Positions 11,545 through 52,445 of a DNA stretch of 64,000 bases are shown here, in pieces; position 1 is the first letter of the stretch; each line of letters begins with the position of its first letter. This stretch comes from the human T2T-CHM13v2.0 reference genome, Homo sapiens. Both the position numbers and the translations under genes were made by a program. The notes below the pieces were generated by a model that saw only the letters and a program-made list of their open reading frames with translations, ran no database searches and was not told the DNA's origin. The stretch lies in the NCBI RefSeq assembly GCF_009914755.1, contig NC_060947.1, one strand, 5' to 3'.

Positions 11545-12120
11545 AGGGAGATGCAGACTTGGGAGTCATCACCAGCAAATAAAAGAGAATGTACCCTTTC
11601 TATATTTTTCCAGACATGAACATTTTTCAAATATATTTTGGATCATATTATACATACTGTTTCATAATCTATTAATAAGTCACAATGATTACTAGTGTTT
11701 CTGCTTGTAGAAATAGATACTTTTCTATTGCAGCAAAGATACAATATTGAGATAATTGCCACCTGTTGGTCAAATGCAGAGCTACATCTCTGACTGTCTT
11801 GGAGGAGGCTCCGTAAAGATTTGAGGAGGGAGGGGCCTCTGGCTTGACCCACCAAACAGGGCTTGCTGGAGGCTTGAATGGCACAGGCAGCCCTTCCTGC
11901 AGAATCTATTGCTGCTTGGCTTTCTGAGCTTCTGGCAGGAAGTTTCACCCTTATCTCAGATCAAGAGAAAGCTGCCAGTGTGAGTGTCTCTTGAGGGAGT
12001 GTGTATCAGTTTTGTGTGAGTGCGTTTGTGCGGATATTTTGTATTTTGGGTCATAGCCTTTTAGACACGTTTGCTTTATACTTACACTTACTCATACATA
12101 TAAGAGTATTATCAACGACA
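11545..12120 (+). repeat. Low-copy ancient repeat, head module A, copy 2 (paralogous to 51915-52445)
   Basis: Direct alignment by eye; core 11749-11991 vs 52085-52327 is gap-free with about 28 mismatches in 243 bp. Confidence 0.92.
11757..11786 (-). promoter_or_regulatory. Bipartite CTCF motif (core + M2/upstream motif), ancient repeat copy 2
   Basis: TGCCACCTGTTGGTCA, 5-bp spacer, then AGAGCTACA. Reverse complement resembles the CCASYAGRKGGCA core plus the TGCAG-type upstream motif. Binding is not demonstrated. Confidence 0.6.
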
Positions 12121-12760
12121 AATGGGACAGATTATATTATACATAAAGTATGCAATCTGGTTTTTATGCTTAATAGGGAATACCTTTCGAAGCGAGTGTT
12201 TCTATAACATCAGTTGTGTGAATCAGATCGTAACAAAATTTTTCCTGTGCTTTGAAAATTTTTATTTTGATTACTTTTCTGAATTGCAAAACGAATACAT
12301 ATTTGTCTTTTAATGATATCAAATCATGCAGAAATGTGTAAGTGGAAAATGAAATTGTGCTTTGTTTACCCTCTCAAGATAAACATTTTTAATGGTGTGC
12401 TAATATATTCTACAAATGTTTCTATCCCAATATAATGTACTAGCATATGTAAGTACTTTTATATAAAAGCCCTAAATATGTATATACACGATATAGATGT
12501 ACACCACTCTATACCTATTCTTCAACAAAGACAATGAGACAACATGTTAATCTGTCCCTTTCCTTTTTCCACTTACGAAATCTTAAAATTTTTGTTTGTA
12601 TTTCTTTGTTATTGTGTTTGGGTTGTTTTTCATCGGTTTGTTGGGGATTTATATTGCTTTTTATGAAAATTAGAAGTTACTCTGTATCCATCCTCTAGTA
12701 GTCAAAAAGAATTTTTTATATGAAAGATGACTGTACAATTAATTGTTCAAACTGACACTT

Positions 12761-14147
12761 AAAGAATAATTTCAACTGTTATTTTAGATTCGGGGAGTAT
12801 ATGTGTAAGTTTGTTACCTGAGTATATTGTGTGATGCTGAGGTTTGGGGTGTGATGGATCCTGTCACCCAGGTACTGAGCATAGTACCCAGCAGTTAGTT
12901 TTTCACCCCTTGTGTCCCTCCCTAACTTCCGCCTTTAGTAGTCCCAATTTAGGTTGGTTCCATGTCTTTGGTATTGTGAACAGTGCTGTGATCAACATAT
13001 GAGTGCATGTGTCTTTTTGGCAGAAGGATTTATTTTCCTTTGGATGTATACCCAGTAATGGAATTGCTGGGTTGAATGGCAGCTCTGTTTTAAGTTCATA
13101 GAGAAACCTCCAAACTGCTTTCCACAGTGGCTGAACTAACGTACATTTCCACCAGCAGTGTATAAGCATTCCCCTTTCTTCACAACCTCACCAGCATCTG
13201 CTATTTTGTGACTTTTTAATAATAGCCCCTCTAACTGGTGTGAGATGGTATCTCATTGTGCTTTTGATTTGCATTTCTCTAATAAGTAATGTTGAGCATT
13301 TTTTCATATGCTTGTTGGCCACATGCATATCTTCTTTTTAGAAATGTCTGTTCATGTCCTTTACTTTTTGCTTGTTGATTTAAGTTCTTTATAGATACTG
13401 GATATTAGGCCTTGTTAGATTCATAGTTTGCAAATATTTTCTCCCATTCTGTAGGTTGTCTATTTACTCTGCTGATAGCTTCTTTTGCGGTGCAGAAGCT
13501 CTTTAATTTAATCAGGTCCCATTTGTCAATTTTTGTTTTTGTTGTAATTGCTTTTGAGGACTCAGTCATAAACACTTTCCCAAGGCTGATGTCCAGAATG
13601 GCATTTCCTAGGTTGTCTTCCTAAGATTCTTATATTTGAGGTCTTACTTTTAAATCTTTAATCTATTTTTAGTTAATTTTTGTACTAATATATGTTGAGA
13701 GGTAGGGGGTCCAGTTTCTTCTGCATATGGCTAGCCAGGCATCCCAGCACAATTTATTGAATAGGGAGCCCTCTCCCCATTGCAACTTTGTCAAAGATCA
13801 GATGACTGTGGGTATGTGGTCTTATTTCTGGGTTCTGTATTCCGGTTCATGGTCTATGTGTCTGTTTTTGTAGCAGTACCATGCTATTTTGGTTACTGCA
13901 GCCTTATAGTATAGTTTGAAGTCGGGTAGTGTGATGACTCCAGCATTGTTCCTTTTGCTTAGGATTGCTTTGGCTATTTGGGCACTTTGTTCTATATGAG
14001 TTTTAGAACAGATTTTTTTTTTTTTAGTTCTGTGAAAAATTAAGAATAGTGTTAAATCTGTAGATTGCTTTGGTCAGTATGGCCACTTTAATGATATTAA
14101 TTATTCTTTTCTGTGAACATGGGATATTTTTCCATTTTTTTGTGAAT
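12761..14147 (-). mobile_element. 5'-truncated L1 (L1PA/PB) with an internal deletion, inserted into a hAT-Blackjack MITE (MER94/MER81-like)
   Basis: L1 3'UTR and ORF2 C-terminal homology; TSD TGACACTT on both sides; flanks 12726-12760 and 14148-14226 rejoin into a Blackjack-type MITE. Confidence 0.85.
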
Positions 14148-14319
14148 TGACACTTTTGAGAGTAAAAGGTGGTCTGTGAAACAACAGACATAAATTGAAA
14201 CCACATCAAGCTATATGCTCATCTTCTTATATATTATGAACATTAACTCAATGTCTGTAATACACGTGCATCATTTTTTCCCATTTTATATTTCTTTTTA
14301 TCAGCTTTTGCAATGCAAA

Positions 14320-14935
14320 TGTTTCAAATTTTCATTTTATTATTAAAAGACAATGTGGTTAATTATAAATGTTTGAAGAATACACTAGAGTGGAGTAATT
14401 TGCCAGTCTAATGTGAGATAGACACAGAGAGCATTCAAAGCCCATAAGGCCACAAGATGCAGTGAGAAAAGCTTGGGTTTTAGAAAAATTTCAGGCTTAG
14501 ACTACCTGGTCTGTAATTTAGGATATTAATGACCCAGGTGGTTTGAGCTCTAGGTAAGAATGAAGATAGTAATCTTTACTTTGAATGTTTGTTTTTGGGA
14601 TTAAAGGAGATGAGATATAAAGTTACCACGATGTAGAATGATTTTCTTGTTCATTTCCATCCAGCAGATCACCTCTCCAGTCTTTTAAAGCCTGAGCTTC
14701 TGCCTGAGCCCACTCACCACTTCAGGGATCTGCCAACTCATGTGGCCCTACACCCAGGTCTCTTTGCGCAAAGGGCAGGATTTCAACTCCTCTATCTTCT
14801 TCATCACCCAAAGGGATTGTGGAGTGCAGATTTGTGGGTCCACAATAGCAGGGGAGTGGAATCTGACCATTTCTCAAGCCCTGGAAGCCCATCTTCTAAG
14901 AAGGAGGCTGCTCAGGGTTTTCTAGGGAGGGTGAG
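14320..14935 (+). repeat. Ancient repeat module B (paralogs at about 7300-7750 and 54030-54650), includes a MIR remnant
   Basis: Shared ATTCAAAGCCC at 7425, 14433 and 54150 followed by a MIR; downstream CTTCAGG(G)A(T/A)CTGCCAA and GAAGCCCA..GCTGCT blocks are shared with 54440-54640. Confidence 0.7.
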
Positions 14936-15179
14936 GGATGCAACTGCATTCCTGCCTCTTACCAGATGTGTGACTCTGGAAAATCGATTTATACTCTGTG
15001 AGCCTGAACTTCTCCACTGCAAAATGGGAAACAATTGATACTGTCCCCACAGAATTGTGTAGGGAAAATGAGGGAACTTAAGGAAATGTTTGGTGCATAA
15101 TATAACTTCAGCAAATGTTTGTTCTGCTCACCATGACTCCTCACCACGATAAAAGAGACTTCGACATAAAAGAAAGAGC

Positions 15180-15495
15180 AGAACTGTCAGAGCATTTGGA
15201 AATGTAGCAACAAGAAAGGAAATGTATAGGCATTTACATAATGTATGAATTTGGGTGCCATCTCAGTTGTAGAATGTTATCAGAAGAATTTGGAGAAAGG
15301 GAAGACAATATTGTACTATTTCCTTGTATTCTATTGAATTTCTGTCCCTGTTACTTCACTTTCTACTTGAACATCTGAAGAAATAGTTTTCCAGTAAGTT
15401 CTGGAAAAAGGAGACAGTACAGGGGAACCAAATATAATAAGGACCATTGGATCTTAGATGAGTCACTTCCTCTGTGCTGGCCTCATCTCTAACAC
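15180..15495 (+). repeat. Ancient repeat module C (paralogs at about 20-270, 8190-8250 and 37790-37975)
   Basis: GAAATGTAGCAACAAG..GAAATAGTTTT aligns to the window start; TGAGTCACTTCCTCTGTGCTGG (15459) matches TGAGTCACTTCCCCTGTGCTGG (37939). Confidence 0.7.
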
Positions 15496-17570
15496 CAAGT
15501 CACATGCAATATAACTGGTTAGGGGGTTTGGGCTTTGGGTGCTATTGTTTTCTGGTTGCATGACCTTTAGCAAATTTTTTAACCTCTCTGAGACCCATTT
15601 AAAAATATTTCAAATGGCTGTTATAATGGCAACAACATCATTAGGCTGTACTGAAAATTAAGTGAGAACATGCATGTACAGCATTTAGTAAAGTGTCTGG
15701 CACTAAGTAATCAATAAATGTTATCATCATGTTCCTTTATTATTGGCTTTTTCAAGACCATCAGAAGAATAATAAAGGGTTTGGGGCTGGGAAGAATGTA
15801 GTGTTTCACCTTAGATGACAGGTTCTATTACGCTGCAGCATTAAAAGGGTTCAGTGGTGGTGCAAGAACTGACATACATATTAATGGGACAGAATAGAAA
15901 AATAAGAAGCAGAACCAAGTGTACAGAGACATTGAGAATTTCATAAATGTGGCATTTGCTGTTACTTAATAATTCATAGACGCTAAGAATTGATGTTGGG
16001 TCATTTTAAACTGTTCACTAACAAAAGAATGGGAAATCTTATTCTCATGCCATATGATATAATGTGAAGCATTAGTACACACCACCACCTATCTATCCAG
16101 TATGATTGCAGTTCCATAAAATGGGTATGCAGCTGTACACATATTTGCATGTATGTGTATATTTCTAGTTTCAATGAGATTCAAGAAACTATGAACACTG
16201 TTTATCAATGAGAGTATGATTGGAAGTTACTTGTATCTTTTTATACCTGTCTGTACTTTTGATAATATCCTAAATGGGCATGGATTATTTTTACAAACAG
16301 AAACAAAGCCTGTAAAAGCTTTTAGTAGCTAGGGAACACAAGGGAGTGTGATAGGTTGGAAAGAGAAAATGTTTTGGGGCTATACATACCTTGTGTTCTC
16401 CTCTGGCTTTGCCCATTGCTAGGGGGTGACCAAAAGGTAAGGTACTTAACTCTTCTGATTTCCCATTTTCTTGTTCTAAAGAGGAGGAAAGTAATCCTTT
16501 CATTGCAGAGTTCTTGAAGTAATCTGATGGAATTATCAAAATATAGATAAATATGCTGTGCTTTATATTAAACTGTACTGGAGATTCCATCCCAGCTCTT
16601 ACCCCTACAAGTTTCTTCACCCTCTGAACTTCAGTTTCCTTATCTTGGAATTGGTTATAACATTGATCTTGAAATAGTATGTATATTAGCTGTCCAACAC
16701 AGTGCCATAATAGGCACAACTCCCCCTATTCCAGGTAACTATTTCCAAGAACATTATATATCCTAGTAATATAAAAGAAAGAGGTGATTTTTTTTATGAC
16801 TGGGGGCCTAAGAATTGGTGGTAATTCTTATTTTCTTCAAATAATCTTATTTTTTCCATTTAATTAAGTATTTTATATCCTGAGGAGCCTTGATCCAGCC
16901 ATTCTGTTCTGAGGAATTTATCTTACAACAAAACATGTTTCAAGAATTTCCTATTTGAAACCATGGTACAACCATGGTGATTGTGCATATATTTTTGGAA
17001 CTTTTGTAAGATTTTCCATAGGATAAATTCCTGAAAGTAAAAAATTTTAACCAAAACATATGGCATTGCCAAATGCAGATTTAAAATGTTCAATACCAAT
17101 TTCTAATCCCATGCACAGTGGTGGTATTTCCTTTCCCTGAATTCATCTCATCAGTTAAAAAGGGGCTTAGGCACTTTGACACTGCAATTCCTGTTGCAGA
17201 AATTTGTCCTGCAGGACAGTCTGTACAGAGCTATATATTGCAAGGCTTGGAGTTTACCCTGTGGTTGAAGCACAGGGACCAAGGAAAAAAAGTGTTGAAG
17301 ATCACTGAAGTGAAATAGTTCAAGTGATGAGTCATGCACTCTAGGCTGGATCGGGAAGGAGCGTGCACATTTTAGGGGCCTGATACACTGAAAGGCTCAG
17401 GGGTTGGGTTCCATGGTTCTTTCCTCCCCTGTTCTCGTCTCCTCCCACTGGAACTCTGCGCACTCCTCTGTGTCAGGCCCTGGGATTGCTGCTATACACA
17501 GTTTTACCTCCCTTAATCCTCACAACATTTTCAGCTCCATTCTCTAGATGAGAAAACTGAGGCTCTGACA

Positions 17571-17709
17571 GGTATTCATCGAATCTAAGACGCCACACTA
17601 TTTTAGGGACTACTAGGAAAAGCAAAATTCTGGCTATTATAATGGTAAGACAGCACTAATTTAGGTGTTAAAAGTGAAAAAATATATGCCTCTGAGACAC
17701 GGGGAAATG
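17571..17709. mobile_element. MER104-like TcMar MITE
   Basis: GTATTCATCGAATCTAAGACGCCA terminus and GTTAAAAGTGAAAAAATATATGCCTCT body. Confidence 0.5.
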
Positions 17710-19526
17710 TTATAGCTTGTGTAGCTTGCATCTATTACATGAAAAAATTGAGGTTGGAGTCTATTTCCTTCTGGTATCAGATGTTATGCTGTTGCCATAA
17801 TTTAGGACCACAGTGGTAAATTAGACTTGTACCAATCAGGTAATGCCCTCTTCTCTTATTGTCCTATTGTGTTTTTTATATTTATTGTGTGTTTTATATT
17901 TATTTATATACAAACAAAAATAATGTATACATACAAATATAATGTATATACACAAATATTTATATTCATTTCTGATAGCCAGGTGTTAGTTTTTCCCTCC
18001 TGTGTAGTGGTTGTGTGACCTTGGGCAAGTCACTGCATATCTATGTGCCACATTATCTCCAGCTTTATTAGGATGGACTCCAACATTAGGATCACTTTAA
18101 GCCATTCACATTTTGTAATTTAAAATTTCCACTTGCCTGACATTTAGCCTTCTGTCGCTGTGCGTCCTTCCTGTCGGGGGTTGATTGGGGTCAAGTGGGA
18201 TGGTGGAGGGTGTTCTCTTTGAAAGATGCCTGCAGTAGCATTGCTAAGTAATGGGACATACCCCTTCATTTTTCATCTTAATAGAATCCACATTGCCATA
18301 AGGAATTCTCTTAATGCAGAACGCATACATACCAAAATAAATGGGAAGCGTCCGGATGTTGGAAATAATTCAAACAGCACCTTGTAAAGGGCATGCCTAC
18401 AAAATATATGGAAGGTTTACTAAAAAGTAGAAAATAAATGGTTTTGGTTGGGCTTTAAAATTCTAGTTGCAAAAAAAAAAAAAAATGCTGAAGGAGGATG
18501 CAAGCAAGGCCAAATTCAGAAAGGCTAAAACTTGAATCTCAGAATTTTGATTTTCATACTATTATTTTAATAATAAAAATATTATGTGTCCTGTTAAATG
18601 CCAACAGTACAGACATGTGTAAAGTAAAATGTAAAAGTTTCCCTGTCTGTATGTTCCTAATCTCTCTGGACTGCTAAGTACCACCCTGTGGAATTGACCC
18701 GCATATAATATTGTCATTATTGGTTTTTAAATAAAATCTAAATTTCCTGACGTGCAAGGACATGGAGCACCACGTTTCTCTTCTGAAAATGTGAGTATTG
18801 AGTGGCTAAATGGCTAAAATTAGTTACCTCACAAAATGCAACTTCTTAGAAAGAACGTTATGGGGAAAGACAAATAGGAATGCTTTGAGATACATGTAAG
18901 GCTGTTTCTATGTTTGTATTGTGTTAATTATAGAATAATAACAATGTTTGCTGTATGTGCCTCTAACAATACGTGAAATAAGAGTGTAAAGAAAATCTAG
19001 AAATATCTATTGCTTGTCAAGACCTTGTGAGATGATACATATCTGCTTCTGCAGGCCTACAGGTAAAAGCACTGGGCTGAGTCAGACTGTTTTTACAAGA
19101 ACTCCAAATGCAAAACTATTTCTTGCTTATGAAGGTTAAGTGGTGGATCATATTGCCTCTGATCCATATGAAAGCATTTCTACCACTCATAGCAACCATT
19201 CAGAGAAAGAAGCTTCACATTGCTTTATAGTCCACCCCTCTGTAGTCTAAGGGGCTTCTAGAATTCCATTCCTGACGAGACTTATATAAAGAACACCCCA
19301 ACGTTGGAAACGGTTAAGATATTTGAATCTTCTAGAACCTTCCATAGACTGTGTGATGTTTCTTTCTTATTAATATATTATAGATTAGTTGTGATTTCTG
19401 GAAATTAATCCTTTGTTCACTGTATTTGTTGCAAATATGTTTTTCCAGTTCGAGGTTTGTCTTTCCATGCCTTTTAAATGTAATGTTTGGATACACAAGG
19501 CTTTTTTTGTATATATACATATATAT

Positions 19527-25800: not shown

Positions 25801-26998
25801 TTCTTTAGCATTTCTTGTAGGACAAGTCTGGTGTTAATGAAACTCTTCAGCTTTAGTTTGTCTGGAAAAGTCTTTATTTCTCTTTCATGTTTAAAGGATA
25901 TTTTTGCTGGACATATTATTCTAGGATAAAAGTTTTTTTCCTTCAGCACTATAAATATGTCATGCCACTCTCCTGTCCTGTAAGGTTTCCACTGAAAAGT
26001 CTGTTGCTAGATGTATTGGACTCCATTGTATGTTATTTGTTTCTTTTCTCTTGGTGCTTTTAGGATCCTTTCTTTATCCTTGATCTTTGGGAGCTTGATT
26101 ATTAAATGCCTTGAGGTAGTCTTCTTTGGGTTAAATCTGCTTGGTGTTCTACAACCTTCTTGTACTTGAATGTTGATATTTTTATCTAGGTTTGTGAAGT
26201 GCTCTGTTATTATTCCTTTTGAATAAATTTTCTACCTCTATCTCTTTCTTTGCCTCCTCTTTAAGGCCACTAACTCTGAGATTTGCCCTTTTGAGTATAT
26301 TTTCTAGATCATGTAGGTGTGCTTTATTGTTTTTTATTCTTTTCTCTTTTGTCTCCTCTGACTTTGTATTTTCAAATAGGTTGTCTTCAAGCCCACTAGT
26401 TCTTACTTCTGTTTGATCCATTCTGCTATTAAAGGATTCTGATGCATTCTTCAGTATGCCAATTGCATTTTTCAGCTTCAGAATTTCTGCTTGATTCCTT
26501 TTAATTATTTCAATCTCTTTGTTAAATTTATCTAATAGAATTTTGATTCAATCTCTGTGTTATCTGGAATTTCTTTAAGTTTCTTCAACATAGCTATTTT
26601 GAATTCTCTGAAAGGTCACATACCTGTGTTTCTCCAGGTTTGGTTCCTGGGCCTCATTTAGTTTGCTTGATGAGGTCATGTTTTCCTGGATGGTGCTGAT
26701 GCTAGTAGGTGTTCTTCAGTGTCTAGGCACTGAAGAGTTAGGCATTCATTGTAGTCTTCACTGTCTGGGCTTATTTTTAGCTGTCTTTCTTGGGAAGCAT
26801 TTCCAGATATTTGAAAAGACTTGAGTGTTGTTAGCTAAGCTATATCTGCTTTAGGGGGCACCCCAAGCCCAGTAACGCTGTGGTTCTTGCAGACTCTTCA
26901 TGGTACCACCGCGATGGTCTTGGACAAGATCCAGGAGAATTCTCTGGATTACCAGGCAGAGAGTCTTGTTTTCTTCCCTTATTTTTCCCAAACCTATA

Positions 26999-27001
<3 letters not shown>

Positions 27002-27032: not shown

Positions 27033-27034
<2 letters not shown>

Positions 27035-29579: not shown

Positions 29580-32500
29580 ATTTTATTTTTTTATTTTTAT
29601 TTATTTATTTTTTAAGAACAAGGGGTCAATTTATTTTAAGTAAATTTGTCATTAAATATCAATGTGTACAATTTCAAACATTTATAAATCTTGCAGTTTA
29701 TAGAAAAATTAATGTAATCTTAAAATTATTTGAACAGTGGCTTTCACAATTATTTACAATGAACTCAACCTACTTTTGTAGAAACATTTATGTTTAAAAG
29801 TACCCCTGCCACAAAGTGATCATTTCACAGTACCTTTCTATAATATTTATGTCACTTAAGTGGTGGCTGCATGAATAAAACCTAGCAGATTCAATAATTC
29901 AGAAACAGCACAATCAGAACAGTCAATAAAGCTACCATTAATTCCAAACAAAACAGAACCTTTTATAGTAAGATATAAATGTTTTCCTATTCAGCACTTG
30001 TTGAAAAAAATAATTAGGAGGCAATCTTTTCTTCACTGTTTACTGCAAAACAAAGTAATTTTAAGATATTTTTAAAAATTGACGTTAAGAAGCAGGATTA
30101 GGTAACTTCTTATAATATGTGACATTAAATATTTTGAGAAATTCTTGGTTTCATTGGAAGGCATTTGTAATGATAAACCTTCTTTCAGTTATAATAAGAC
30201 ACTAAGCAGAGATAATTCTGTCATCCCAGATAGCAATTTCTTATTAACAATTGATAACATTTGAACTGAAAGAGATTCTTGGCTTTATTTCTATATTTTT
30301 TTCTACTTAGGTATTTAACTTTTTTGACATCCTCTTATCCCCTCAATAGGATCCAAAATATGTCTACAATTAATTCAAAAGAAAAATAACTATTTGAATT
30401 ATTGCTTGTGTTTGAAAACAATATTTACTGTAGTATTCCACAGTTTCTTATTTTTTTTAAGCTAAGACAATTAAATAAAAATGTAAGGGATAAGAAATAT
30501 AGTTGAAGTCACAATAAAGTATATTTTCTTTTATTGACATAAAACATAAATTTTAAATGTTGGCTTGTTAAGAAAAAAATTCTCCTGGTAAATATTATGC
30601 ATAACCGTTGCCCAAAAATGTATACAGCTGTTTTCCAACATATTTATATACACAGTGGTTCACTTAAGACCAGCCCTGTTAGAACCTTCTGAATATAATG
30701 TGCTCTTAATTTATAAATGGGCTACCCTCAGTGTATAAAATATATAGGCATGTATGTTATACATACAAAGTAAAAAATATAAAAAGGAAAGATGGAAGAA
30801 AAAAGAAAGTATCCTTTCCTATAAGATCCAGACAGAAAGTCATTATAATTAGTGGGACCATGGAAAACATCTGAAGGATTTCAGTTTTGGCAAATAACTT
30901 TTCAGAAAAATATCCAAGCTGTGAGAACACTAAATGTCTATTTTAATAATTTAGTAGAGGTTTCTATTCAAACATTCAGTGAAGATGTTGCTGTCTTCAA
31001 CTATGTAGAAAAGAAGACTTTTAGGGTGTCTGTTAAAAGCAAAGAGCTGCTGATTTTTAACAGGTTAGTAATAACCTTTTAATCAAGTATATGTCATGCA
31101 GAGACTCAAATCCTGGTCCAATAGTGTTTGAGTATGTTCGATGGAAGATTCCAATGGTAAGGATCCGAATTCTTCCTACATCTTAGAGGGAATGGAGCAG
31201 GATGTTATGGCAATGGAGGGGGTCAGCCCCAAAGGTAGCTGGCCCAACCTTAACTGTGGATGTTTAAAAAAAAAAAAACACCAAATATTTCTATAGCATT
31301 CTTTTTGCTGCATTTTCTTTATTTTAAGCCACAGGTCTACTTGGAGGGTCATGCAGCAAGTGGCTTATAAATAAAATCAAAGTCTATGAATAGTGTCATT
31401 GCATTAAGAGACAGAATTGCTGGGTTCTTTCATTATGTAAAAAGCTCACATCTTGGGAATCCATGATTTGGTAGGTTTTATGGAATACCTGAGATGTACC
31501 TTGCTCCGATTAACATTACCATGCTACTCACTATAAAAAAGCCCAAGGGCAGACTACAGAAGATACTAGGGTCACCACTTTCTGGAGATTGAGTTGTAAC
31601 CCAACCCATTGACTTCATCACAGCTTTCTTCCATGTAGAATAACGAATTTCACTTTCCTCAGCATTAATCTGAGGTTCAAACCGCTCCATCGTGACGGCA
31701 GACAAATCCTCGGGTTCGAGACTCCATACGCCGACTCCTTCTGCAGCCCCTGCCTCCATAGCAGCACCCAGTGCAGTGGTTTCGGGCATTGAGGGCTTCA
31801 CTACTGGTATATACAGAATGTCTGCTTGTAGCTGCATAAGAATTTTGTTGCTGGTCATTCCTCCATCTACCTGCAAATGACTGAGTGGAATTCCACAGTC
31901 TCGATTCATGGCATCCAAAATCTCTCGAGTTTGGAAACAAACAGCTTCTAATGCAGCAAAAGCAATATGGCATTTATTGGTGAACTGAGTGAGTCCACAG
32001 ATTATCCCTCTTGTGCTGGGCTCCCAATAAGGTGCATATAACCCCGAAAATGCTGGGACGAAGTAGCAGCCATAAGAAGTACCTACTTCTTTAGCAAGTT
32101 TTTCAATTTCTTCTGAGGTCTTTATAATTCCAAGATTGTCTCTTAGCCAGCGAATAACAGCACCAGCTATAGCTACAGAACCTTCCAAAGCATAATATAC
32201 TGGTTTGTCTCTGCCAAGTTTGTAAGCCACTGTGGTGAGAAGGCCATGATCAGAAAATACACACTTATGGCCTGTATTACACAGTAAGAAACATCCTGTT
32301 CCATACGTATTTTTGGCTTGTCCAATCTGGAAGCACATTTGTCCCACCAATGCAGCAGACTGGTCCCCTAAACACCCAGATATTGGCACACCTTCCAAGG
32401 CCCCAGCTTTCATTAGGCCATAGATCTCAGAAGAACTCCGGACATTTGGAAGAATTTCCATTGGAATTCCAAAAAATTCGCAGAGTTGTTTATCCCATTC

Positions 32501-33253
32501 CAAAGAATGAATGTTGAAAAGCATAGTCCTACTTGCATTTGTTACATCTGTACAGTGGACACCTCCATTGACTCCTCCTGTCAAATTCCAAATAAGCCAT
32601 GAATCAATAGTCCCAAAAAGAGCTCATTTTTCTTCAACGGCCTTTTGAACTTTTCTCACATTGTCAAGGAGCCAACGAAGTTTCACTGCACTGAAGTAAG
32701 TGCTAAGTGGAAGGCCTGTCTTGGACTTGACAAAGTTATTATTTCCTGGAATTCTTTTACTAAGACTCTCAACGGTAGACTGGGTTCTTAGATCAAGCCA
32801 CACCACAGCATTGTAGAGAGGCTCTCCAGTTATCTTGTCCCAGACTACAGTGGTTTCCCTCTGGTTGCTGACACCAATAGCTTTTATGTTGGAAATATCA
32901 ATATTGAGCTGTCCAAGTTTCTCACATGTTTTCTCTATACACTCATAGACAGAATGTAGAATTTCCTTAGGGTCCTGTTCCACCCATCCTTCTCTTGGGG
33001 ACTCTTGTTTTATTTCTACTTGATGATGACTAAGTAGTTCAGCTGTTTTTGAATTGAAAACCAAAAAGCTCGTCGAACTGGTGCCCTGGTCCACCGCCCC
33101 CACCAATGGCCCCAAAACTGCCTTCTTTGAGGCTGCCACGAAACCAGCTTCAGGTCGGCCGGCGATTGCGGCCGGTTTCCTGGGTGACGGCGGCGGGAGG
33201 GGGAGGGGCAGGTGACGAGTCCAGAGATCGAGGCCGCGCGCGTCCGCTGAACC
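29580..33253 (-). pseudogene. GK: Full-length processed pseudogene (retrocopy) of glycerol kinase GK mRNA; possibly the X-linked GK4P locus (recollection, unverified)
   Basis: Intronless GK coding sequence, GC/CpG-rich 5'UTR (33140-33253), about 1.9-kb 3'UTR, AATAAA at 29630-29635 (minus), degenerate poly(A) at 29580-29613, 15-bp TSD TACTTATTTTATTTT at 29565-29579 and 33254-33268. Confidence 0.96.
31478..33139 (-). pseudogene. GK: Disrupted GK coding region (554 codons, 553-aa isoform), split into ORFs 32624-33139 and 31478-32584
   Basis: Translation [23 protein letters not shown]...GARYISGIP matches human GK (FGGY kinase family). Start codon is GTG (33137-33139). In-frame TGA at 32624-32626 where GK has Arg ([14 protein letters not shown]). 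The two ORFs are in the same frame with no frameshift. Confidence 0.96.
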
Positions 33254-33509
33254 TACTTATTTTATTTTTAAAACCAGAAAGTTTGCACAGAGGGCAAGGG
33301 AAATAGCCAAATGTGAACAGTTGCTCTCTTAGCTATTTTTAAGTGTTTCCTGTTGTTTCTGATGGTATTCTCTCAGTGTTTCAGCAGCCTCTTCAACTCA
33401 GATCTGGTCTTAAATGTGGTCCATTTCTGCCCCCTCAACTTTGGTTACTGGGATATACTTTACCTACTGTCAGTCTGATTGTTTTTAGGTGTTCAGTTCG
33501 ATAACTGAA

Positions 33510-35127: not shown

Positions 35128-35556
35128 TTATTTGTATTTTCCCCTACATTTATGAATGTGGTTTCTCTATTGTTTAAATTGAGGGTGAATTCCTGTTACA
35201 TTCAGAAACAAAGCCCATAAAAGTATATACCGTAATCAAGATGTTCTTCAGTGTCTGGGCATTGAAGAGTTAAGTATCCACTGTAGTCTTCACTATCTGG
35301 GCTTATCTGACCTATGTTACTCATCTGACCTATGTCCCAGGCATCCCGCTCAAAAGTGGAATAGGCAAATCCTTGGGCCAATCATTAGATAAGACATTTG
35401 AAAGCTCCAGAGTCATCAGTCCATTGTGTGAAGCCACAGCCATGAGAAATTTTGAGTGCACACTCATTGGACCCTTTTCAAATGAAAAAGTGTATCTGGA
35501 AACGGTGAAGCTGGTGGAGTTACTAGGTGGGTAAAGTTAATAAAACCGTTAGGATG

Positions 35557-35802
35557 TGTTGGGGAAGCTTCCCACAGGAAGTGATGTTTAAACTGAGACC
35601 CGAGGGGAAAAGAGGCATTATCCAGGGAAAGAGTAGAAGGAGGAGATAATCTGAGATTCTAGCCAGATATAAAAGACGGGAAATGCTATATAACCTGATT
35701 CATCCCTGGAGAAATCCATTATGGAAATCCACTATTCAGCGGTTGGGCATGTCCAGAAAACTGTGTGAAACTTAATGAAACAATTATAGAAAGTGGCTGA
35801 AC
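35557..35802 (+). repeat. Ancient repeat module D, second copy
   Basis: Paralog of 4183-4430; lies just upstream of module A copy 3. Confidence 0.85.
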
Positions 35803-36129
35803 CCATTCTCCTCTCTTTGCTCTGACCCCAGCCCTCACAGCAGAGTGTTACCACTATTGCTACATACTGTATGGGATTTAGGGATACTGTCAGGAGAGTG
35901 TGTGAAATGGTGGGTTTTAGAATCAAGTTTGGAAAGTAAAGATGTTTGTGAGAGTAGTAAGAAGAAATATTTATATTTGTGGAACCATAGAAAGGAAAAC
36001 TAAGTAAAGGGATTTGATCATTATTTTGATTTACACACTCTTGCACCACTCGCAAGGCAAAATGACTTTTAGCAGAAGATTGTTTCATTTTCCCAAATTA
36101 TTATTGATTTTCATTGGAAAAATCAGAAA

Positions 36130-36370
36130 TTAGAGATCAGTACCATCTAGTGACCAGTTCCAAAATGGCTACTTGTACATCATTAAGCAGGAAGCCTGGG
36201 AAGGAGAGGCCCCATCAGAAGGAACTTTCTAGAATTTTACATGGCAAATAAAGTGGCCCAGACAGAGCCTACTGTAATTAAATTATATTAAATCATGTGC
36301 CAGGAAGTTTTCTTCAGCCTCCTCCATGATAAAAAGAAAGCTCTCTGTGTATGTGTGTTTGTTTGTGTGT
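36130..36370 (+). repeat. Ancient repeat module A, copy 3 (diverged)
   Basis: CTCF-like head, then AGCAGGAAGCCTGGGAAGGAG, GACAGAGCC, CAGGAAGTTT and a TG run, colinear with 56245-56480. Confidence 0.7.
36141..36156 (-). promoter_or_regulatory. Degenerate CTCF core motif, ancient repeat copy 3
   Basis: TACCATCTAGTGACCA (rc TGGTCACTAGATGGTA), at the position homologous to the other copies. Confidence 0.45.
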
Positions 36371-37403
36371 GTGTGAGACAGATGATTTTTTTATATATAT
36401 ATGTATATATATACACACACACACACACATAAATGCCTGCATACAGATGTATATTGCAAAATGTTTTGTAACTTCTTTTTAAAAATTATGTGCGCATATG
36501 TATGTATATTTGATATATATTTTTTCATGTACAGAACTACATTTTGACAGAATTATTATTGTGGTCACATTTCTAATGAGAAATATATAATATTATAAAA
36601 TTTTATCTCGTTTTAATTTTGCTGACTTCAAAATTAATGTATTTGTTCCAAAAATAAATGCAGTGGAGAAATAAGTATTCATTGGAGAAAAGTTTTAAAT
36701 CTCTTGTCCTGTTATGTAACAAGATGTCCATCCTTGGTAATGTAGTTTCTATTCTCTAGATATATTTCCATGTTCCTAGTACTATATAGGTAGGTTCAGA
36801 TGACATTATATATTGTTTTAGAAAATTTTAATCACTATATGTATAGTATGGTTAATAAATTCTGTTGTTTAATATGTATTTTTGCTTACATACATTATAA
36901 TTTTGTTCTTCCTTAGTCTTTATATGTTTGTAATGCAGAATTATTATTTGAATTATTTCACTGCAGACTTGGAATAAAACTATTTTAGGTATTCAGACTT
37001 ATTTATATATTAAGAATATTAAATATCTGCCTGTAAAATATGCTGGAATTGTTTCCCATAATTCATATTTCTTTAAAATTATTTTTCTGTTTTTGGATAG
37101 GCAAAGTCTTTTTTTAACTTTCCCTTCCTTTTTATAATTAAATTAGTAATATAATTCACTGTAAAGAATTTGGAACCAGTTAATGTGTATTTATGACTTT
37201 ATGATCATTGTTAAAAAGAAAGTTTGTGACCCTACTGATACTCTATGGGATTTGGGGATATTGTCTGGAGAGTGTGTGAAATGGTGGATTTTAGAATCGA
37301 GTTTGGAAAGCAAAAATGTTTGTGAGAGTAGTAAGAAGAAGAAAGAAGTTAATGTGAGAAAAAGCATTTCGTAGTAAGAATGAAATGTTAAAAACTTCTG
37401 AAG

Positions 37404-37768
<365 letters not shown>

Positions 37769-38804
37769 TTATTCTATGTGTTTTTATTTCTTTGTCATTT
37801 CACCTTTTAGTTGAATGTCAAAGAAGCAATTTTCCATTAAGTCTGAGAAAGAGATGACATTCATAAGTCCACTGGAGAAACGGTATCTGATACCTAGGCC
37901 TCAGATACCAGGTCTATCACGGGTCATAGGACTTTTAGTGAGTCACTTCCCCTGTGCTGGCTTCTGCTGTAACACACAATAATCCTTTACATAGAAATAG
38001 GTCTTTGCTCAAGTGTCATTTCCATCAGTGAGAACTTCAATGATTATACTACTTTTAAAAGTTCACATCCCTTCTGCACTCCCCATCTCCTTTCCCTGCA
38101 TTAATTGTTCCACAATAAAAATGACAGCATAAACTTTGGTAGTTCCCTCTCTTAGCCATGCACTGTTTTCAGTGCTTCATATGTACTAACACATTTATTT
38201 CTCACATCAAGTTTAATAGGGAGATACTATTATTATTGTCCCTAAGGTCACACAGTTTTTAAGTGGGCAGAGCTGTGACTGAAATCCACCATCATGGCTC
38301 CTAACTCCCTTCTCTTAACTGTCAATCATGTTGTGCTTGTCCAAATTAGCTAGGCCATATCACATACTCCATATTTTACTTATTTGTTTATTATCTTTTA
38401 CCAACCCCACTAAAACATTAACTTTGAAAGGGTGAGAACTTTGTTCATTTTATTCATGGTTATATCCTGAGGCAGAGGCATAAAATGTCCTGTAGCCACC
38501 AAGTACAAAATCTGATATTAATATCACCACTACAGCTTTCTTATGCTTACTGTTTGTGTGGTAGATCTTTTTCTTTCCCTTTATTTTCAGCCTATTTTGC
38601 TGTTATAGTTAAACTGCATTTCCTTTAGACAACATATATTTAGATCTTGTTTTTGTATATATTCTCATAATCTTTGCCTTTTACTTGGGGGTGTTTAGTC
38701 TATTAGCATTTAAAGTACTATCAATAAAATTTGATTTAATTACAATATTTTGCTATTTTAGTGCATCTCCTTTAAAAAATTCCTCTATCCTTTGTTTGCT
38801 TTCT

Positions 38805-45171: not shown

Positions 45172-45199
45172 TGTGTGTGTGTATATATATATATATATA

Positions 45200-45230
<31 letters not shown>
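45172..45230. repeat. Compound (TG)(TA)(TG) microsatellite
   Basis: Direct observation. Confidence 0.9.
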
Positions 45231-45233
<3 letters not shown>

Positions 45234-45274
45234 AGGAAATAAAATGTTTCTAAATTTTAACTTCGTTTATCAGT

Positions 45275-45640: not shown

Positions 45641-46566
45641 GCCATGTGTTCATTTTTAAACAAAGCTGCTATTACCTGTGCAAAATTGATCAAAACAAAT
45701 AGGCAAATAAATAAACAAACCTGTTTTTATGGTATTACCAAATGGCTGCATATGAGCAAGGACCATCAGAGAATATGGACAAATAAAATACTCGAACCTT
45801 TCAGAGAGGGTATTTACCAGTTAATGGTTTTCTATGGTCACAAATAAATATTACAAATGCAGAAGGCAGCAGGAGTTGCTTCTGTTGCCAGAAATCCAAA
45901 TCCATTAAATTCATTCTCTAGGCTTTTAGGCACTTAGAGTTATGTTGACTATTAGTGATACAACTCTTATAAAGGCATAAAGCATACCATTCTGAAAGTA
46001 GGCAAAGACTATTCAGACAAATATCTACGTCTAATGTGAAACGGTTCAATTGAAATGCTGTCCCCACATCACTTATTGGGTCAGAAGAAAATATCATGGC
46101 CAGAGATAACTTGGCATAGAACTGAATTTATCCAGGATGTATTATCTTTGAATACTCCATTGCGACCTGCCAGCTGGAGGTCACATAAGAAAATATGACA
46201 GCACTAAATATGGCAAATGAAAGTTCATTACATCCTATCAAATGTTTTTCTAATGTGGTATTTAAAAGTTTCTTCAAATTTACATTTCCTTTATTTGTCC
46301 AAAAATGGGAAAATGTACGCATTTATCATATTCACCTCAGAAAGGCTATGTGGCACATCAGTGATGTGACATGGAAAACTTTTAACTCCAGGAAAGCCAA
46401 ATTCATAGGCCTATGGGGCCAAGTTGATAATGTAGATAATATAAGCAGGAGTAAATAAAAATAACAAGAACTTTTGCTACCACAAGTTAATACTGTCCAC
46501 TGTTACTGAAATGAACAGTATTCTTAGTTTCTTTGTTTCACCCACGTTTCACAACTTTTATTTTTT

Positions 46567-46705
46567 AGCCGGGCACGATGGCATGTGCCTATAGTCCCAT
46601 CTTACTTCAGGAGGCTGAAGTGGGAGAATTCCTTGAGCTCAGGAGTTTGAGACTACCCTGGGCAGCATAGCGAGACCCTGTCTCTAAAACAATAAATACA
46701 TAAAA
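46567..46705 (+). mobile_element. FLAM (Alu monomer)
   Basis: Monomer with A-rich tail. Confidence 0.8.
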
Positions 46706-46912
46706 TTTTATTTTTAATAGTGAAGTAATAATTGCATTATTTATGAGGTACAGTGTGATGTTTTGATATATATATATGTATGTGTATATATATGTGTATG
46801 TATATGTATACACACACACACAGATTGTGGAATGATTAAATCAAGTGAGTTAACATATCCATCACTTCACCTATTTATCATTTGTAGTTAGAATGTTTAA
46901 AATCTCTTTTAA
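46706..46912 (-). mobile_element. L1MA 3' terminus
   Basis: TTTATGAGGTACAGTGTGATGTTTTGAT..GGAATGATTAAATCAAG..TAACATATCCATCAC. Confidence 0.7.
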
Positions 46913-49306
46913 CGAGAAATATTTCACTTTTCTCTTTACTGTAAGAAAAGTAACAGCAATAATAGTACAATAAAAAACTAACATTCCGTGTATGTGTGGG
47001 GATAGGAAGTGACAGGAACCACAGTGACTGGGGATAAGGAAACTGCTTCTCAGCTCCAGCCAGTTATTTCCTTAAGGGCATGAAGGAATGTAGGCCCTGT
47101 GTGGCAAAACCTTCTCATTTTTCAAGATAAGCCAAGAAGCTTTATTTATATGTGAAATCTTCCAATTTTTAGATGTCGGCAACTGTTTAAAAATGAAATG
47201 TTATGTGGACAAAATTGTGTTCCCCAAATCATCAATTTTTACCCTCTGTTGTAAATTAATATTTTTTTGCAGTTGCAAGATTTAATAGAGTGAAAGTAAG
47301 TTAATATTAACTGAAGGAATATGACATCTAAAACCAGATAAGCTAAAATCAAAAGATTAAAGACAGACATGATTAATATTTTACAATTATCTTTATATAA
47401 ACAAAAAGTCCAATTAAAGAATTAAAAAAAGAAAGGGAATGAAATTAGGAGCAGACTTACAAAGAAGCTTACATTACGTGCTTTGTCCAGACATAAGGAG
47501 TTGAGAAGAGTTTTTTTTATTGCCGGGGTTATTATGGAGGTTAATGAAAATGTTTACCCAAAAGTTGGAACTATCAAGAATGAATATAATATTCATAAGA
47601 AAAACGAGGACACTATGATCAGTTCCCAAGAGCTTTTCTAAAATAAGAACAGCTTTCATTTTTGGCCTGCCATTCCAATATCACTGCCTTGTTTTTACAG
47701 GGATTTTCGGTTTATATGGACTCTTTTTTGGATGGCCACACTCCCCCTTTTAGCAGAGTAATTATCTGTATTTCATAGATCAGGAAATCAAGGGCATAAA
47801 ACATGTTGCTGAGAAAAGACTAGGAATAAATAATCTTTTATTCGTGCAAATCTCAGTTGTAAGTTCACATAGTGGAGGCAGAAATGTCAACCGGATGTCT
47901 AGAATACAGAAAGAACTAGTCTTTGCTGAGCCTTGAATACTATTTTTAAAATCTTATTAATGTGAAAGACTGAGGACTCCTTGTAACCTCATTTAAAAAG
48001 TTTTATCTGCTAATACATAGACAGTGTTTACAGACAGAAACATATTTGTCATTTGACTCTAAAAAATTCACCTGTGCAAAAATCTCATTGTCAAAAGTAG
48101 GCAGAGAGCATAAAGAAAACACACTTTTCCACTGAATATTTTTTTCTTGAAATTAAACATTTTTATTTGAATGCAATCATCAACATGACTGAATGACAAT
48201 ATATTTGCTTATGAGTAATATAAAGTGAAACCATACAAATTGAGAACAAAATTAAGTTGTCTTGATAGCTATTCAAAAAGTGTTCGACCAAAACAAACCC
48301 CTGGTCCAGTATAAATACTCTCTATTAAATTCTCAAAATAAATATGGCTGAATACAAAGAAATCCTTATGCTGTTGAGATGACCCATTTTTATGCTCTGG
48401 GAAAAGAAATGATTTAGCAGAAGACATGAGAATTGTGTGTTATTTTAAAGTGAAGATGTGAATGTCTGTATGGAAAGGCAAGATGAACTTAAACATTGAA
48501 CAGTAAACTGAGAATTCTGATTTGGTTCCCTTTTAGCACAGTGCTACTGAAGCACTGCCAAGTTCACCATGCACTCAGATGTGCAAATGTTTCTCTGTAT
48601 AACTGGTCTGATCATCCTCATGGCTCCGTCTACACCTGCACTTTCTGTCTGTCCTTTTGAGAATACTCACAATCTCTCAGGTTGGCCTTGCCTTATGCCC
48701 AGCCATTTTCCATCATTAGGTCTTGGGCACATGGGTGGTTGTGGGATGGAGAGGCAAGGGGCAGTGGTAGCTTGCTTGTCCCTATGGCACTAAGTTGTTC
48801 CCTGCACTGGTGACTGTTAAGATGTGATGAAACTTCGCCATGACCTTTTGGCTTTGTTCCCGGCCCTTTCATTAGCACTGTGTTTTTATAGTCAATAAAT
48901 TAGTCTTTATTATCATATATGCATGTATATTATCATACATACAAATAAATGGAAAATAATAAGGAAAGAAATAAATTATTGCGAAGTAGCAAAAACATGC
49001 CTAAAAGGATTTTTAAAAGGAGACTATCAGATGAACTGTAGACAATGTCTGGTGATACTGCCATAGTCTCTGCCCAAAAGCTCCTTGATCTGATATACAA
49101 CTTCAGCAAAGTTTCAGGATACAAAATCAATGCAAAAATCAGTAAGATTTCAATGTACTAATAACATCCAAGCTGAGAGCCAAATCGAGGACACAATCCC
49201 ATTCAGAATAGCCAAAAAAAAAAAAAAAAAAAAAAAAAAACCTAGGGATACAGCTAACCAGAGAGGTGAAAGATCTCTACAATGAGAGATTATAAAACAC
49301 TGCTCC

Positions 49307-49374
49307 ATCGTGCCATTGCACTCCAGCCTGGGCAACAAGAGCGAAACTCCGTCTTAAAAAAAAAAAAAAAAAAA
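49307..49374 (+). mobile_element. Severely 5'-truncated AluS (Sp/Sq-type 3' end)
   Basis: ATCGTGCCATTGCACTCCAGCCTGGGCAACAAGAGCGAAACTCCGTCT + poly(A), inside L1 ORF2. Confidence 0.88.
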
Positions 49375-50919
49375 GAATTCAGAGATGACACAAACAAATG
49401 GAAAAACATTCCATGCTCATGGATAGGAAGATTCAATATTGTTAAAATGTCCATGCTGCCCAAAGCAATTTACAGATTCAATGCTATTCCTTTCAAGCTA
49501 CCAGTGACACCCATCACGGAATTAGAAAAAACTGTTTTAAAATTCATATGGAACCATAAAAGAAGCCAAATAGCCAAGCAATCATAAGCAAAAAGAACAA
49601 AGCTGGAGACATCACATTACCTGACTTCAAACTATACTACGAGGCTACAGTAACCAAAACAGCATGGTGTGCATACAAAAATAGGCACATAGAAAAAGAG
49701 AACAGAATCTAGAGCCCAGAAATAATGCCACACACTTACAACCATCTGATATTCAACAAAATCGACAAAAACAAGCAATGGGGAAACAACTTCCTATTGA
49801 ATAAATGGTGCTGAGATAACTGGCTAGCCATACACAGAAGACTGAAACTGGACCCCCTTCTTACACCATATAGAAAAATCAACTCAAAATGGGTTAAAGA
49901 CTTAAATGTAAAACTTAAAACTGTAAAGATGCTGAAAGATCACCTAGGAAATACCATTATGGACATAGGTCCTGGAAAATATTTCATGATGAAGATGCCG
50001 AAGCAATTTCAACAAAAACAAAAATTGACAAATAGGACCTGATTAAAGAGCTACTGCATAGCAAAAAAACTATCAACAGAGTAAACAGACAACTCACAGA
50101 ATGTGAGAAAATACTTGCAAACTATGCATCTCATAAATATCTAATATCCAGAATCTATAAAGAACTTAAACCAATAATCAAAAACCAACTAATCCCATTC
50201 AAAAATGGGCAAAGGACATATAGTAAAGTGAACAAACACTTTTCGAAAGAAGACATACACACAGCCAACAAGTATATGCAAAAAAGCTCAACATCGTGAA
50301 TCATTAGAAAAATGCAAATCAAAACCACAGTGAGATACCATCTCACACCAGTCAGAATGGCTATTAAAAAGTCGAAAAATGAAAGGTGCTGACAAGGTTG
50401 TAGAGAAAAATGAACTTATACACTTCTAGTGGTAATGTAAATTAATTCAGCCACTGTAGAAATACTGTGGATTTCTCAGAGAACTTAAAACAGAATTAGC
50501 ATTTGACCCAGCAATTCCATTATTGGGTATATACCCAAAAGAATGTAAATCGTTTTACCATAAAGACACATTCACAATAGCAAAGCACTATTCAAAGTAG
50601 CAAAGACATGGAATCAACTTAAATGCCCATCAATGGTAGATTGGATAAAGAAAATGTGGTATATATACACCATGGAATACTACACAATCGTAAAGAAGAA
50701 TGAGATCATGTCCTTTGCAGCAACATGGGTGGAGCTGGAGGTCATTATCCTAAGCAAACTAATGCAGGAATAGAAAACCGGATATCACATGTTCTCACTT
50801 ATAAGTGGGAGCTATACATGGAGTACATATGGATATAAAGAAAGGAACAACAGATACCAGGGCCTACTGGGGGGTGGAGGGTGTGGAGAGGGTGAGGATA
50901 AAAAACTACCTATCGGTTA

Positions 50920-51293
50920 TGATATGGTTTGGCTTTGTGTTCCAACCCAAATCTCATCTTGATTTGTAATCCCCAGGTGTTGAGGGAGGAACTGGTCGGA
51001 GGTGATTGGATCATGGGGGGTGGTTTCCCCCATGCTGTTCTCATGATCGTGAGTGAGTTCTCACGAGATCTGATGATTTTATAAGTGTTTGGAAGTTTCT
51101 CCTTCACACTCTCTCTTTTCCTGCCACCTGGTGAAGAAGGTACTTGCATCTCCTTCATCTTCCACCATGATTTTAAGTTTCCTGAGGCCCCCCTGACCAG
51201 CCATGTGTAACTGTGAGTCAATTAAACGTCATTCCTTTATAAATTATAGTCTCAGGGAAGTTCTTTATAGCAATGTGAAAATGGACTAATAGA
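50920..51293 (+). mobile_element. THE1D/MSTA solo LTR nested in L1 3'UTR
   Basis: Starts TGATATGGTTTGGCT; imperfect 5-bp TSD GGTTA/GGATA. Confidence 0.88.
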
Positions 51294-51914
51294 GGATACA
51301 CTGCTTATTACCTGGATGATGAAATAATCTGTACACCAAACCACAGCGACATGCATGCAATTTTCCTATATAAGAAACCTAAACATGTACCCTGAACTGA
51401 AAATAAAAGGTAAAAACAATAAAAAGAAAGCATCCGAAACATGCCACTTCTTTAAGTGATATTAGAAATGTTAGTTCCAGAATTCTTCATTCCATCAACG
51501 GGGGATTTTGATGTAAAATGAATGGAATAACTATATTAAGGATTATTTGAAAATATACACAGAAAACATGCAATATACACGTATTTATGTAACTTGTGAG
51601 CTTTGGTGTTACTTTTTGTAGCATATGCTTTCCTTTGGAGTTTGGAAGAGGAAAAGTTATTTGTGCCATTTCTTTTTATTATTTAATGAGTTATCCTGCC
51701 TATTCTTTACTCTTCAGTTTAACATTAGAGAAACACACACTCACTCCACACATGTAGAAACAAATTGCAGTCGTCTTTCTCCAAATGAGTATGTCCTGCA
51801 GGCAGTTGAAAATGAGAGTCTGGGCTTCAAAGAAAAGAGTGGGATGGACAAATGGACTTGAGTTGGCAGTGCCCAGCCCCCCCAAAAATACGTACAGAAT
51901 GGAAGAATAATTGT

Positions 51915-52445
51915 GAGAGACCCAGCTTTGGAAGTCATTATCAAAAACTAAAACAGCAATACACATTCAAGTTTTTTCTCTCCACATGAATTTTTCAAAT
52001 ATATTTTGTATTATTCATTTCATATTGTCTTTGTCTCTCTTTGCAAAAATTGTTACTTTTCCATCGCAGCAGATGTGGACTATAGAGATAATTGCCACCT
52101 GCTGGTCAAAGCCAGAACTACATCTCTGAATATCTGGGAGGAGGCTCTGTAAGGATCTGGAGAGGGAGGGGCCTCTGGCCTGACCCGCCAAACAGGGCTT
52201 GCTGGAGGCTTGAATGGCACAGGCAGCCCTTCCTGCTTAATCTATTGCTGCCTGGCTCTCTGAGTTCTTGGCAGGAAGTTCCACCCCTGTCTCAAATAAA
52301 GAGAAAGCCACCAGTGTGAGTGTCTCTGATAAACTATATCAGCGCATGTTTGTGCATGTGTCTGTATTTTGTATTTTGGGTTATATCCTTTTAAACACAG
52401 TTGATTTATAACATGTACTTATGCACACGGCAGTATTATCAACAA
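51915..52445 (+). repeat. Low-copy ancient repeat, head module A, copy 4
   Basis: Paralog of 11545-12120; shares a 49-bp identical run CCAAACAGGGCTTGCTGGAGGCTTGAATGGCACAGGCAGCCCTTCCTGC. Confidence 0.92.
52093..52122 (-). promoter_or_regulatory. Bipartite CTCF motif (core + M2), ancient repeat copy 4
   Basis: TGCCACCTGCTGGTCA (rc TGACCAGCAGGTGGCA, near-consensus core), 5-bp spacer, then AGAACTACA. Confidence 0.7.

What the first reader, a model, noticed from the sequence alone, without database searches (positions are those of the whole stretch)
11749..52327. 243-bp gap-free core shared by two repeat heads 40 kb apart is far more conserved than its flanks
Seen: 11749-11991 vs 52085-52327 align without gaps at about 88% (28 mismatches counted by hand) and include a 49-bp identical run. 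The homologous flanks (11545-11748 vs 51915-52084, and downstream) are visibly gappy and much more diverged. Inference: either purifying selection on a functional element (insulator, enhancer, promoter or ncRNA exon) or localized gene conversion between the copies.
Basis: partly seen in the sequence, partly recalled or inferred. Interest (0 to 1): 0.72.

Follow-up and report, generated by a model that had tools for sequence, protein, structure and literature searches.

The report
Gene-converted island in ancient X array
Two far-apart copies of an old, decayed repeat on the human X chromosome share a 243-base patch that was likely copied between them until early primate times and carries a predicted CTCF insulator site, a modest new example of a known process rather than a new kind of element.

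Summary
A and B are two units of an ancient, decayed, non-coding tandem array between ARMCX2 and NXF5. Seven core copies, all on the + strand, were found over about 137 kb, plus four younger duplicates near NXF2. These paralogues let me test selection against conversion. The A/B cores share a private stem of 0.32 substitutions per site, absent from a second block of the same units (0.014); 0 of 60 frozen-core simulations reach it. B versus its younger duplicate C is no better conserved in the core (6.6%) than around it (7.0%). Best reading: a gene-conversion island, likely last homogenised about 50-65 million years ago, over a CTCF-like motif that RefSeq marks as a silencer in A. It is not a BGW element, not coding and not a structured RNA. 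Some selection is not excluded, and orthologues could not be tested. A new example of a known process.

The parts
11749..11991 (+). Core copy A (likely conversion island); RefSeq silencer 11754-11923 lies inside it
   Evidence: hub annotation
52085..52327 (+). Core copy B; its younger duplicate C is at chrX:100790494-100790727 (-)
11852..11900 (+). 49-bp run identical in A and B (52188-52236 in B); one change in C
11757..11769 (-). CTCF-like motif in A, 1 mismatch to a recalled 13-base consensus
52093..52105 (-). CTCF-like motif in B, perfect match; the only one in the window (0.04 expected); also perfect in C
11517..11748 (+). 5' near flank of A, homologous to 51886-52084, about 34% diverged
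11992..12165 (+). 3' near flank of A, homologous to 52328-52493, about 31% diverged
14255..15440 (+). Distal part of unit A, collinear with 53983-55148, 41% diverged
12766..14144 (.). Multi-copy (L1-like, name recalled) insertion that interrupts unit A
6430..6668 (+). Diverged core copy G (about 45% identical to A/B)
36084..36347 (+). Diverged core copy D (about 55% to A/B); 2-mismatch CTCF-like relic at 36141-36153 (-)
56182..56467 (+). Diverged core copy E (about 48% to A/B); 2-mismatch CTCF-like relic at 56245-56257 (-)
15254..15553 (+). Second recurring block of the unit (block 2) in A; used as the control for the stem test
54933..55243 (+). Block 2 in unit B (54% identical to A's, no closer than to other units)
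37707..38056 (+). Block 2 in unit D
8187..8477 (+). Block 2 in unit G
96..438 (+). Block 2 of a unit whose core was not detected
10819..10986 (-). Inverted partial block 2, inside the RefSeq enhancer 10622-11187
   Evidence: hub annotation
4175..4426 (+). Second high-identity patch (81% to 35549-35802) upstream of core G
35549..35802 (+). Partner of that patch, upstream of core D, although cores D and G are only about 48% identical

Best explanation
The 243-bp block is likely a gene-conversion island: two units of an ancient, decayed tandem array that likely exchanged this one stretch until early primate times while the rest of each unit drifted apart, and it carries a predicted CTCF site. Shown: A and B are array units; their cores share a long private history that a second block of the same units does not; the core is not protected between B and its duplicate C; a CTCF-like motif sits at the 5' edge. 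Inferred: conversion was repeated from early on, because one late event between units 55-60% alike is mechanistically unlikely; the homologous tract shrank (distal 41%, near flanks 33%, core 12% diverged); exchange stopped about 50-65 million years ago, before B and C last separated (about 30 million years). Also inferred, untested: A, and perhaps B and C, bind CTCF, and open chromatin or weak selection on that site kept the exchange centred here.
For: (1) Relative-rate test: shared A/B stem 0.32 substitutions per site (bootstrap 0.23-0.43) in the core against 0.014 (-0.08 to 0.10) in block 2. In calibrated simulations 0 of 60 frozen-core runs (largest 0.084) and 50 of 60 converted runs reach 0.32. 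(2) Outside the core, A and B are little or no closer than other pairs: block 2 A-B 54% vs A-D 58%; middle block A-B 57% vs A-G 54%; upstream flank A-B 64% vs A-H 70%. (3) B vs C: core 16 of 241 vs 498 of 7101 outside, p=1; a constant-constraint model expects 5-8 differences, P=1e-4 to 0.013. (4) A-vs-B/C differences do not avoid columns conserved among D, E, F, G (12 of 120 vs 9 of 109; 14 of 127 vs 7 of 102). (5) The D-E pair shows no core excess: core 61%, four flank pieces 60-70%. (6) A second 81% patch joins a different pair (D-G) at a different place in the unit. (7) B/C divergence is patchy (chi2=100, df 29). (8) Conversion of non-coding motifs is documented in this gene cluster (PMC1274310, parts 1-3 of 5 read).
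Against: No orthologue was tested. C carries 9 private changes and B 4, which also fits 'A and B constrained, C relaxed', so test (3) alone is not decisive. The 49-bp run (P=0.035) and zero indels (P=0.07) lean slightly towards constraint. The RefSeq silencer falls inside the island, and all three copies keep the motif. The GC excess expected from biased conversion is present in composition (52-54% vs 41-49% in other cores) but the polarised test is not significant (17:11 vs 97:125, p=0.11; p=0.83 against block 2). The stem test rests on alignments near 50% identity and on an approximately star-like array; a true stem of 0.2 gave 5 of 60 hits. Test (4) has low power. The first 90 bp of the D-G patch is a dispersed repeat.
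Confidence: 0.65

Rival explanations
1. Long-term purifying selection froze the core in A and B (an insulator or silencer), while the other array units lost function and C relaxed after its duplication.
For: RefSeq silencer inside A (hub table); perfect CTCF-like motif in B and C; 49-bp run and no indels; 9 C-private vs 4 B-private changes; a gradient from core to near to distal flank (p=0.003 near vs distal).
Against: Frozen cores should lie closer to all other paralogues (about 60% identity in simulation) but lie at 49%. Rescuing the model needs a burst of change in the core followed by a freeze. Differences do not avoid family-conserved columns.
Confidence: 0.15
2. Conversion and selection act together: two functional CTCF-type sites were kept in step because conversion spread useful changes between them.
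For: The island starts 8 bp before the motif. The motif is closer to consensus in A/B/C (0-1 mismatch) than in D/E (2 mismatches). Precedent in fly dosage-compensation sites (PMC4384634, whole text read).
Against: No binding data seen. No reduced B-C divergence. Two-mismatch matches are at chance level in the window (13 found, 12.5 expected).
Confidence: 0.12
3. One rearrangement event (templated insertion or double unequal crossover) replaced the old core of one unit with a copy of the other, once, in early primates.
For: Three short high-identity copies cluster at 35239-35966 (81%, 88%, 92%), showing templated copying in this locus; the 5' and 3' steps are fairly abrupt.
Against: The copy sits in exact register within homologous flanks, and near flanks are less diverged than distal ones, which fits repeated homologous exchange better. 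In one genome this cannot be fully told from conversion.
Confidence: 0.08

Closest known systems
BGW motif of BEX/TCEAL/ARMCX/GPRASP/HNRNPH2 5' ends (PMC1274310, parts 1-3 of 5 read; PMC7586669, passages and supplement passages)
   Same: Same eutherian-specific Xq22.1 cluster; a short non-coding stretch more alike between paralogues than its surroundings, raised G+C, explained by repeated interlocus conversion.
   Different: No sequence similarity to the ARMCX2 promoter in either direction; no CACGTG E-box or CRE-like site; 1 CpG; no annotated gene downstream; exchange appears to have stopped long ago.
Non-allelic conversion among dosage-compensation binding sites in Drosophila miranda (PMC4384634 whole text; PMC4384637 listing only)
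   Same: Conversion between dispersed regulatory-site copies on an X chromosome.
   Different: There the copies are transposon-derived, young, and the selected changes are shown; here the copies are old array units and function is untested.
Clustered, co-oriented CTCF sites at domain boundaries (PMC6945661, PMC10703910; search listings only)
   Same: CTCF-like motifs or relics in A, D, B and E share one orientation.
   Different: Only A, B and C are near consensus; spacing is 4-45 kb; no binding or Hi-C data seen.
X-palindrome arm-to-arm conversion (PMC8327919, passages)
   Same: Concerted evolution on the primate X; copy C lies in the 11-kb spacer of a nearby inverted repeat.
   Different: A and B are direct repeats, 243 bp, 88% identical, not >99% arms of many kilobases.

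Membership tests
BGW element | Sequence similarity to a known BGW promoter | tested here: not met
   Three family profiles gave no hit better than E=2.6 in 4 kb around the ARMCX2 start; 100 bp around its E-box found only itself in 144 kb, and local scores against A and B were reached by 8% and 39% of shuffles. One BGW promoter was tested.
BGW element | Internal CACGTG-type E-box in a 5' UTR/promoter of a BEX, TCEAL or ARMCX gene | tested here: not met
   0 CACGTG, 0 TGACGT in A and B; no gene at either copy in the hub table.
Non-allelic gene-conversion tract | Local tree differs from the tree of the flanks | tested here: met
   Stem 0.32 in core vs 0.014 in block 2; the AU test does not reject an A+B+C clade in block 2 (p=0.28), so the contrast is in branch length, not a rejected topology.
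Non-allelic gene-conversion tract | High-identity tract in register within older homology, with defined edges | tested here: met
Non-allelic gene-conversion tract | Paralogues cluster within species | not testable with these tools
   No other mammalian genome is held.
Non-allelic gene-conversion tract | AT-to-GC substitution bias | tested here: inconclusive
   17:11 on the A/B/C stem vs 97:125 in other cores, p=0.11.
CTCF site / insulator | Core motif | tested here: met
   Recalled consensus: B and C 0 mismatches, A 1; a consensus string, not a weight matrix, was used.
CTCF site / insulator | CTCF/cohesin binding and insulation | not testable with these tools
   No ChIP or Hi-C data available; the RefSeq silencer's assay is not named in the table.
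Structured ncRNA | Rfam match, stable fold or covariation | tested here: not met
   0 Rfam hits at gathering score, best E=1.8 locally; fold z -0.31 and +0.88; 1 of 69 pairs with a two-sided change, in 3 sequences.
Protein-coding exon | Shared open frame with synonymous excess or Pfam match | tested here: not met
   All six frames hold stops; best ratio 10 synonymous to 15 non-synonymous codons; no Pfam family over cut-off for the ORF over A.
Dispersed transposable element | Many copies across chromosomes | tested here: inconclusive
   Single-sequence searches with cores A, D, E, F, G found core matches only at Xq22.1, but they miss copies near 55% identity; no genome-wide profile search and no repeat library were available.

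The most novel reading that the evidence does not exclude
The ARMCX2-NXF5 interval is the relic of a eutherian tandem array of same-strand CTCF modules, and two surviving sites 40 kb apart were co-evolved by selection-favoured gene conversion that built or refined the CTCF motif, a mammalian counterpart of conversion-tuned binding sites on the fly X.
Probability: 0.12. Interest if true: 0.65.

Novelty: new member of a known kind. Interest (0 to 1): 0.35.

Why it matters
It shows that a short 'conserved-looking' non-coding block between paralogues can come from copying rather than constraint, and that old paralogues in one genome can tell the two apart. It extends the known concerted evolution of Xq22.1 (BGW 5' UTRs) to a second, unrelated non-coding family, and it exposes a decayed array between ARMCX2 and NXF5 that none of my ten literature searches listed (judged from listings; subscription papers are not in the library). 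If the CTCF pair is functional, it would be a testable case of conversion shaping chromatin-boundary sites next to a neurodevelopmental candidate region.

Tried and rejected
BGW membership: rejected. Coding exon: the 28 mismatches fall 11:14:3 over the three codon positions (about p=0.03 by hand), but no frame is open throughout with a synonymous excess, so I treat it as chance; of 18 ORFs sent to Pfam only the GK4P frame passed a cut-off. Splice-like signals (an acceptor-like tract at about 11722-11733, GTGAGT at 11980 and 52316) are not kept in D or E. Structured RNA: rejected. Search for NXF exon relics: the NTF2 family scan gave no match in this region and a translated comparison was swamped by Alu/L1 hits and cut in output; inconclusive. 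The bacterial promoter scan is irrelevant here. GC-bias test not significant. The first simulation was miscalibrated (outgroup distance 0.60 against 0.53 observed) and was rerun. A permissive global aligner gave 69% identity for random pairs, so its flank identities were not used. A literature search by approximate coordinates returned only unrelated papers. The weak partial core near window -4700 (E=0.009) was left out of all counts. Window-equivalent 84001-97004 and the stretch from ARMCX2 to -50000 were not scanned, so copy numbers are lower bounds.

Full report
Observation. The near flanks differ at 118 of 363 sites against 28 of 238 in the core (p=3e-9), and a change-point scan recovers 11750-11992 unaided (LLR 18.3, largest of 25 permutations 7.2). 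The run (P=0.035) and the lack of indels (P=0.07) are only mildly unusual for 28 scattered mismatches.

A third close copy. A search of the whole genome with A gave three matches: A, B and C at chrX:100790494-100790727 on the minus strand. C is part of an 86-91% duplication of window 43312 onward and lies in the 11-kb spacer of an inverted repeat. I take that repeat to be the NXF2/NXF2B palindrome from its position and from PMC3652825 (passages); no annotation of it was seen.

An ancient array. A-B homology continues collinearly to 14255-15440 vs 53983-55148 at 41% divergence, across an L1-like insertion in A. A profile of A, B and C found diverged cores D (36084), E (56182), G (6430) and F. 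A profile of D, E and F alone found A, B and C at E about 1e-18 and G at 1.5e-11; the D/E/F limits came from the first profile. A seven-sequence profile found a further core J, not in its training set, at chrX:100153841 (E=1e-16), and nothing in the reversed decoy. F has copies inside the NXF5 span and in both palindrome arms. In all, seven cores lie on the + strand over about 137 kb on the ARMCX2-NXF5 side, and four younger duplicates near NXF2. A second block recurs downstream of most cores. Old pairs are 43-61% identical. Single-sequence searches found the cores only at Xq22.1, but they cannot see copies this diverged, so an old transposon is not excluded. The region is described as eutherian-specific (PMC1274310).

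What it is not. No Rfam family, no unusual fold or covariation, no shared open frame or Pfam match, and no similarity to the BGW promoter of ARMCX2.

Selection or conversion. If selection had frozen the A and B cores, they would sit near the array's ancestor and be closer to every other core than those are to each other. They are not: p(A,B)=0.12, p(AB,others)=0.51, p(others,others)=0.53, a private stem of 0.32 (0.23-0.43), against 0.014 (-0.08 to 0.10) in block 2. In simulations matched to these distances, 0 of 60 frozen-core runs, 0 of 60 with a 0.1 stem, 5 of 60 with a 0.2 stem and 50 of 60 converted runs reached 0.32 (one search was miscalibrated). Outside the core A and B are little or no closer than other pairs. 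Between B and C the core differs at 16 of 241 sites and the rest of the duplication at 498 of 7101; constant constraint predicts 5-8 (P=1e-4 to 0.013). Differences do not avoid family-conserved columns, D-E shows no core excess, and a second 81% patch links D and G elsewhere in the unit.

Results against this reading. C has 9 private changes and B 4, which also fits relaxation of C alone. The GC-bias test is not significant (p=0.11), although the A/B/C cores are 52-54% G+C against 41-49% for the others. The B/C background is itself patchy (chi2=100, df 29), so it is an imperfect clock. The block-2 tree does not reject an A+B+C clade (AU p=0.28). No orthologue was available.

Function. The only perfect matches to a recalled CTCF consensus in the window and in the 30 loci fetched are B and C (0.04 expected in the window). 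A has one mismatch and D and E have two at the homologous place, which is chance level. The RefSeq silencer at 11754-11923 starts at the motif in A. Distal silent regions in ATAC-STARR-seq are enriched for CTCF motifs (PMC9435738, passages); that this silencer comes from that assay is my recollection of RefSeq practice and was not verified. Binding is untested.

Mechanism. Shown: array membership, a recent common ancestry confined to the core, no extra B-C conservation, the motif. Inferred: repeated homologous exchange from when the units were young kept a shrinking island (41%, 33%, 12% diverged outward-in; near vs distal p=0.003), as argued for BGW 5' UTRs in PMC1274310. Scaling by 5.5% human-macaque X divergence at about 25 million years (PMC8327919, passages), exchange ended roughly 50-65 million years ago and B and C last separated about 30 million years ago; both dates are rough.

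Verdict. A real feature, likely a fossil conversion tract over a probable CTCF site: a new member of a known kind, interest 0.35. My ten literature searches listed no description of this element or array, but subscription papers, figures (including the BGW alignment of PMC1274310) and most supplements were not seen; one of that paper's orphan BGW copies has no stated location in the parts I read.

Noticed in passing
window 43312-64000 and beyond to 84000 vs chrX:100772024-100804202: The NXF5-side and NXF2-side regions are 86-91% identical including old repeats, although mouse synteny suggests the NXF5/NXF2B gene pair predates the human-mouse split (PMC3652825, passages). This points to long-range homogenisation or re-duplication in primates; divergence along it is patchy, 2-13% per 243 bp.
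   Followed up: partly
window 35864-35966 vs 37238-37340; 26707-26774 vs 35239-35306: Short gap-free copies (103 bp at 92%, 68 bp at 88%) cluster with the D-G patch just upstream of core D, like a mosaic of templated insertions.
   Followed up: partly
window 10819-10986 (-): An inverted copy of block 2 lies inside the RefSeq enhancer 10622-11187.
   Followed up: no
L023:1680-1717 (chrX about 100290684-100290721): The F-type core inside the NXF5 span has an exact 19-bp tandem duplication at the place of the CTCF-like relic.
   Followed up: no
chrX:100162373-100163119 vs 100167483-100168205 (L029): A low-copy 72% duplication of about 750 bp upstream of the window, flanking the listed pseudogene LOC100533636.
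   Followed up: no
window 31478-33256 (-): GK4P keeps two long open frames (381 and 210 aa, stop to stop); the first matches the FGGY kinase domains.
   Followed up: partly
window 51122-51134 (-): A further 1-mismatch CTCF-like match about 1 kb upstream of B, inside a multi-copy repeat.
   Followed up: no
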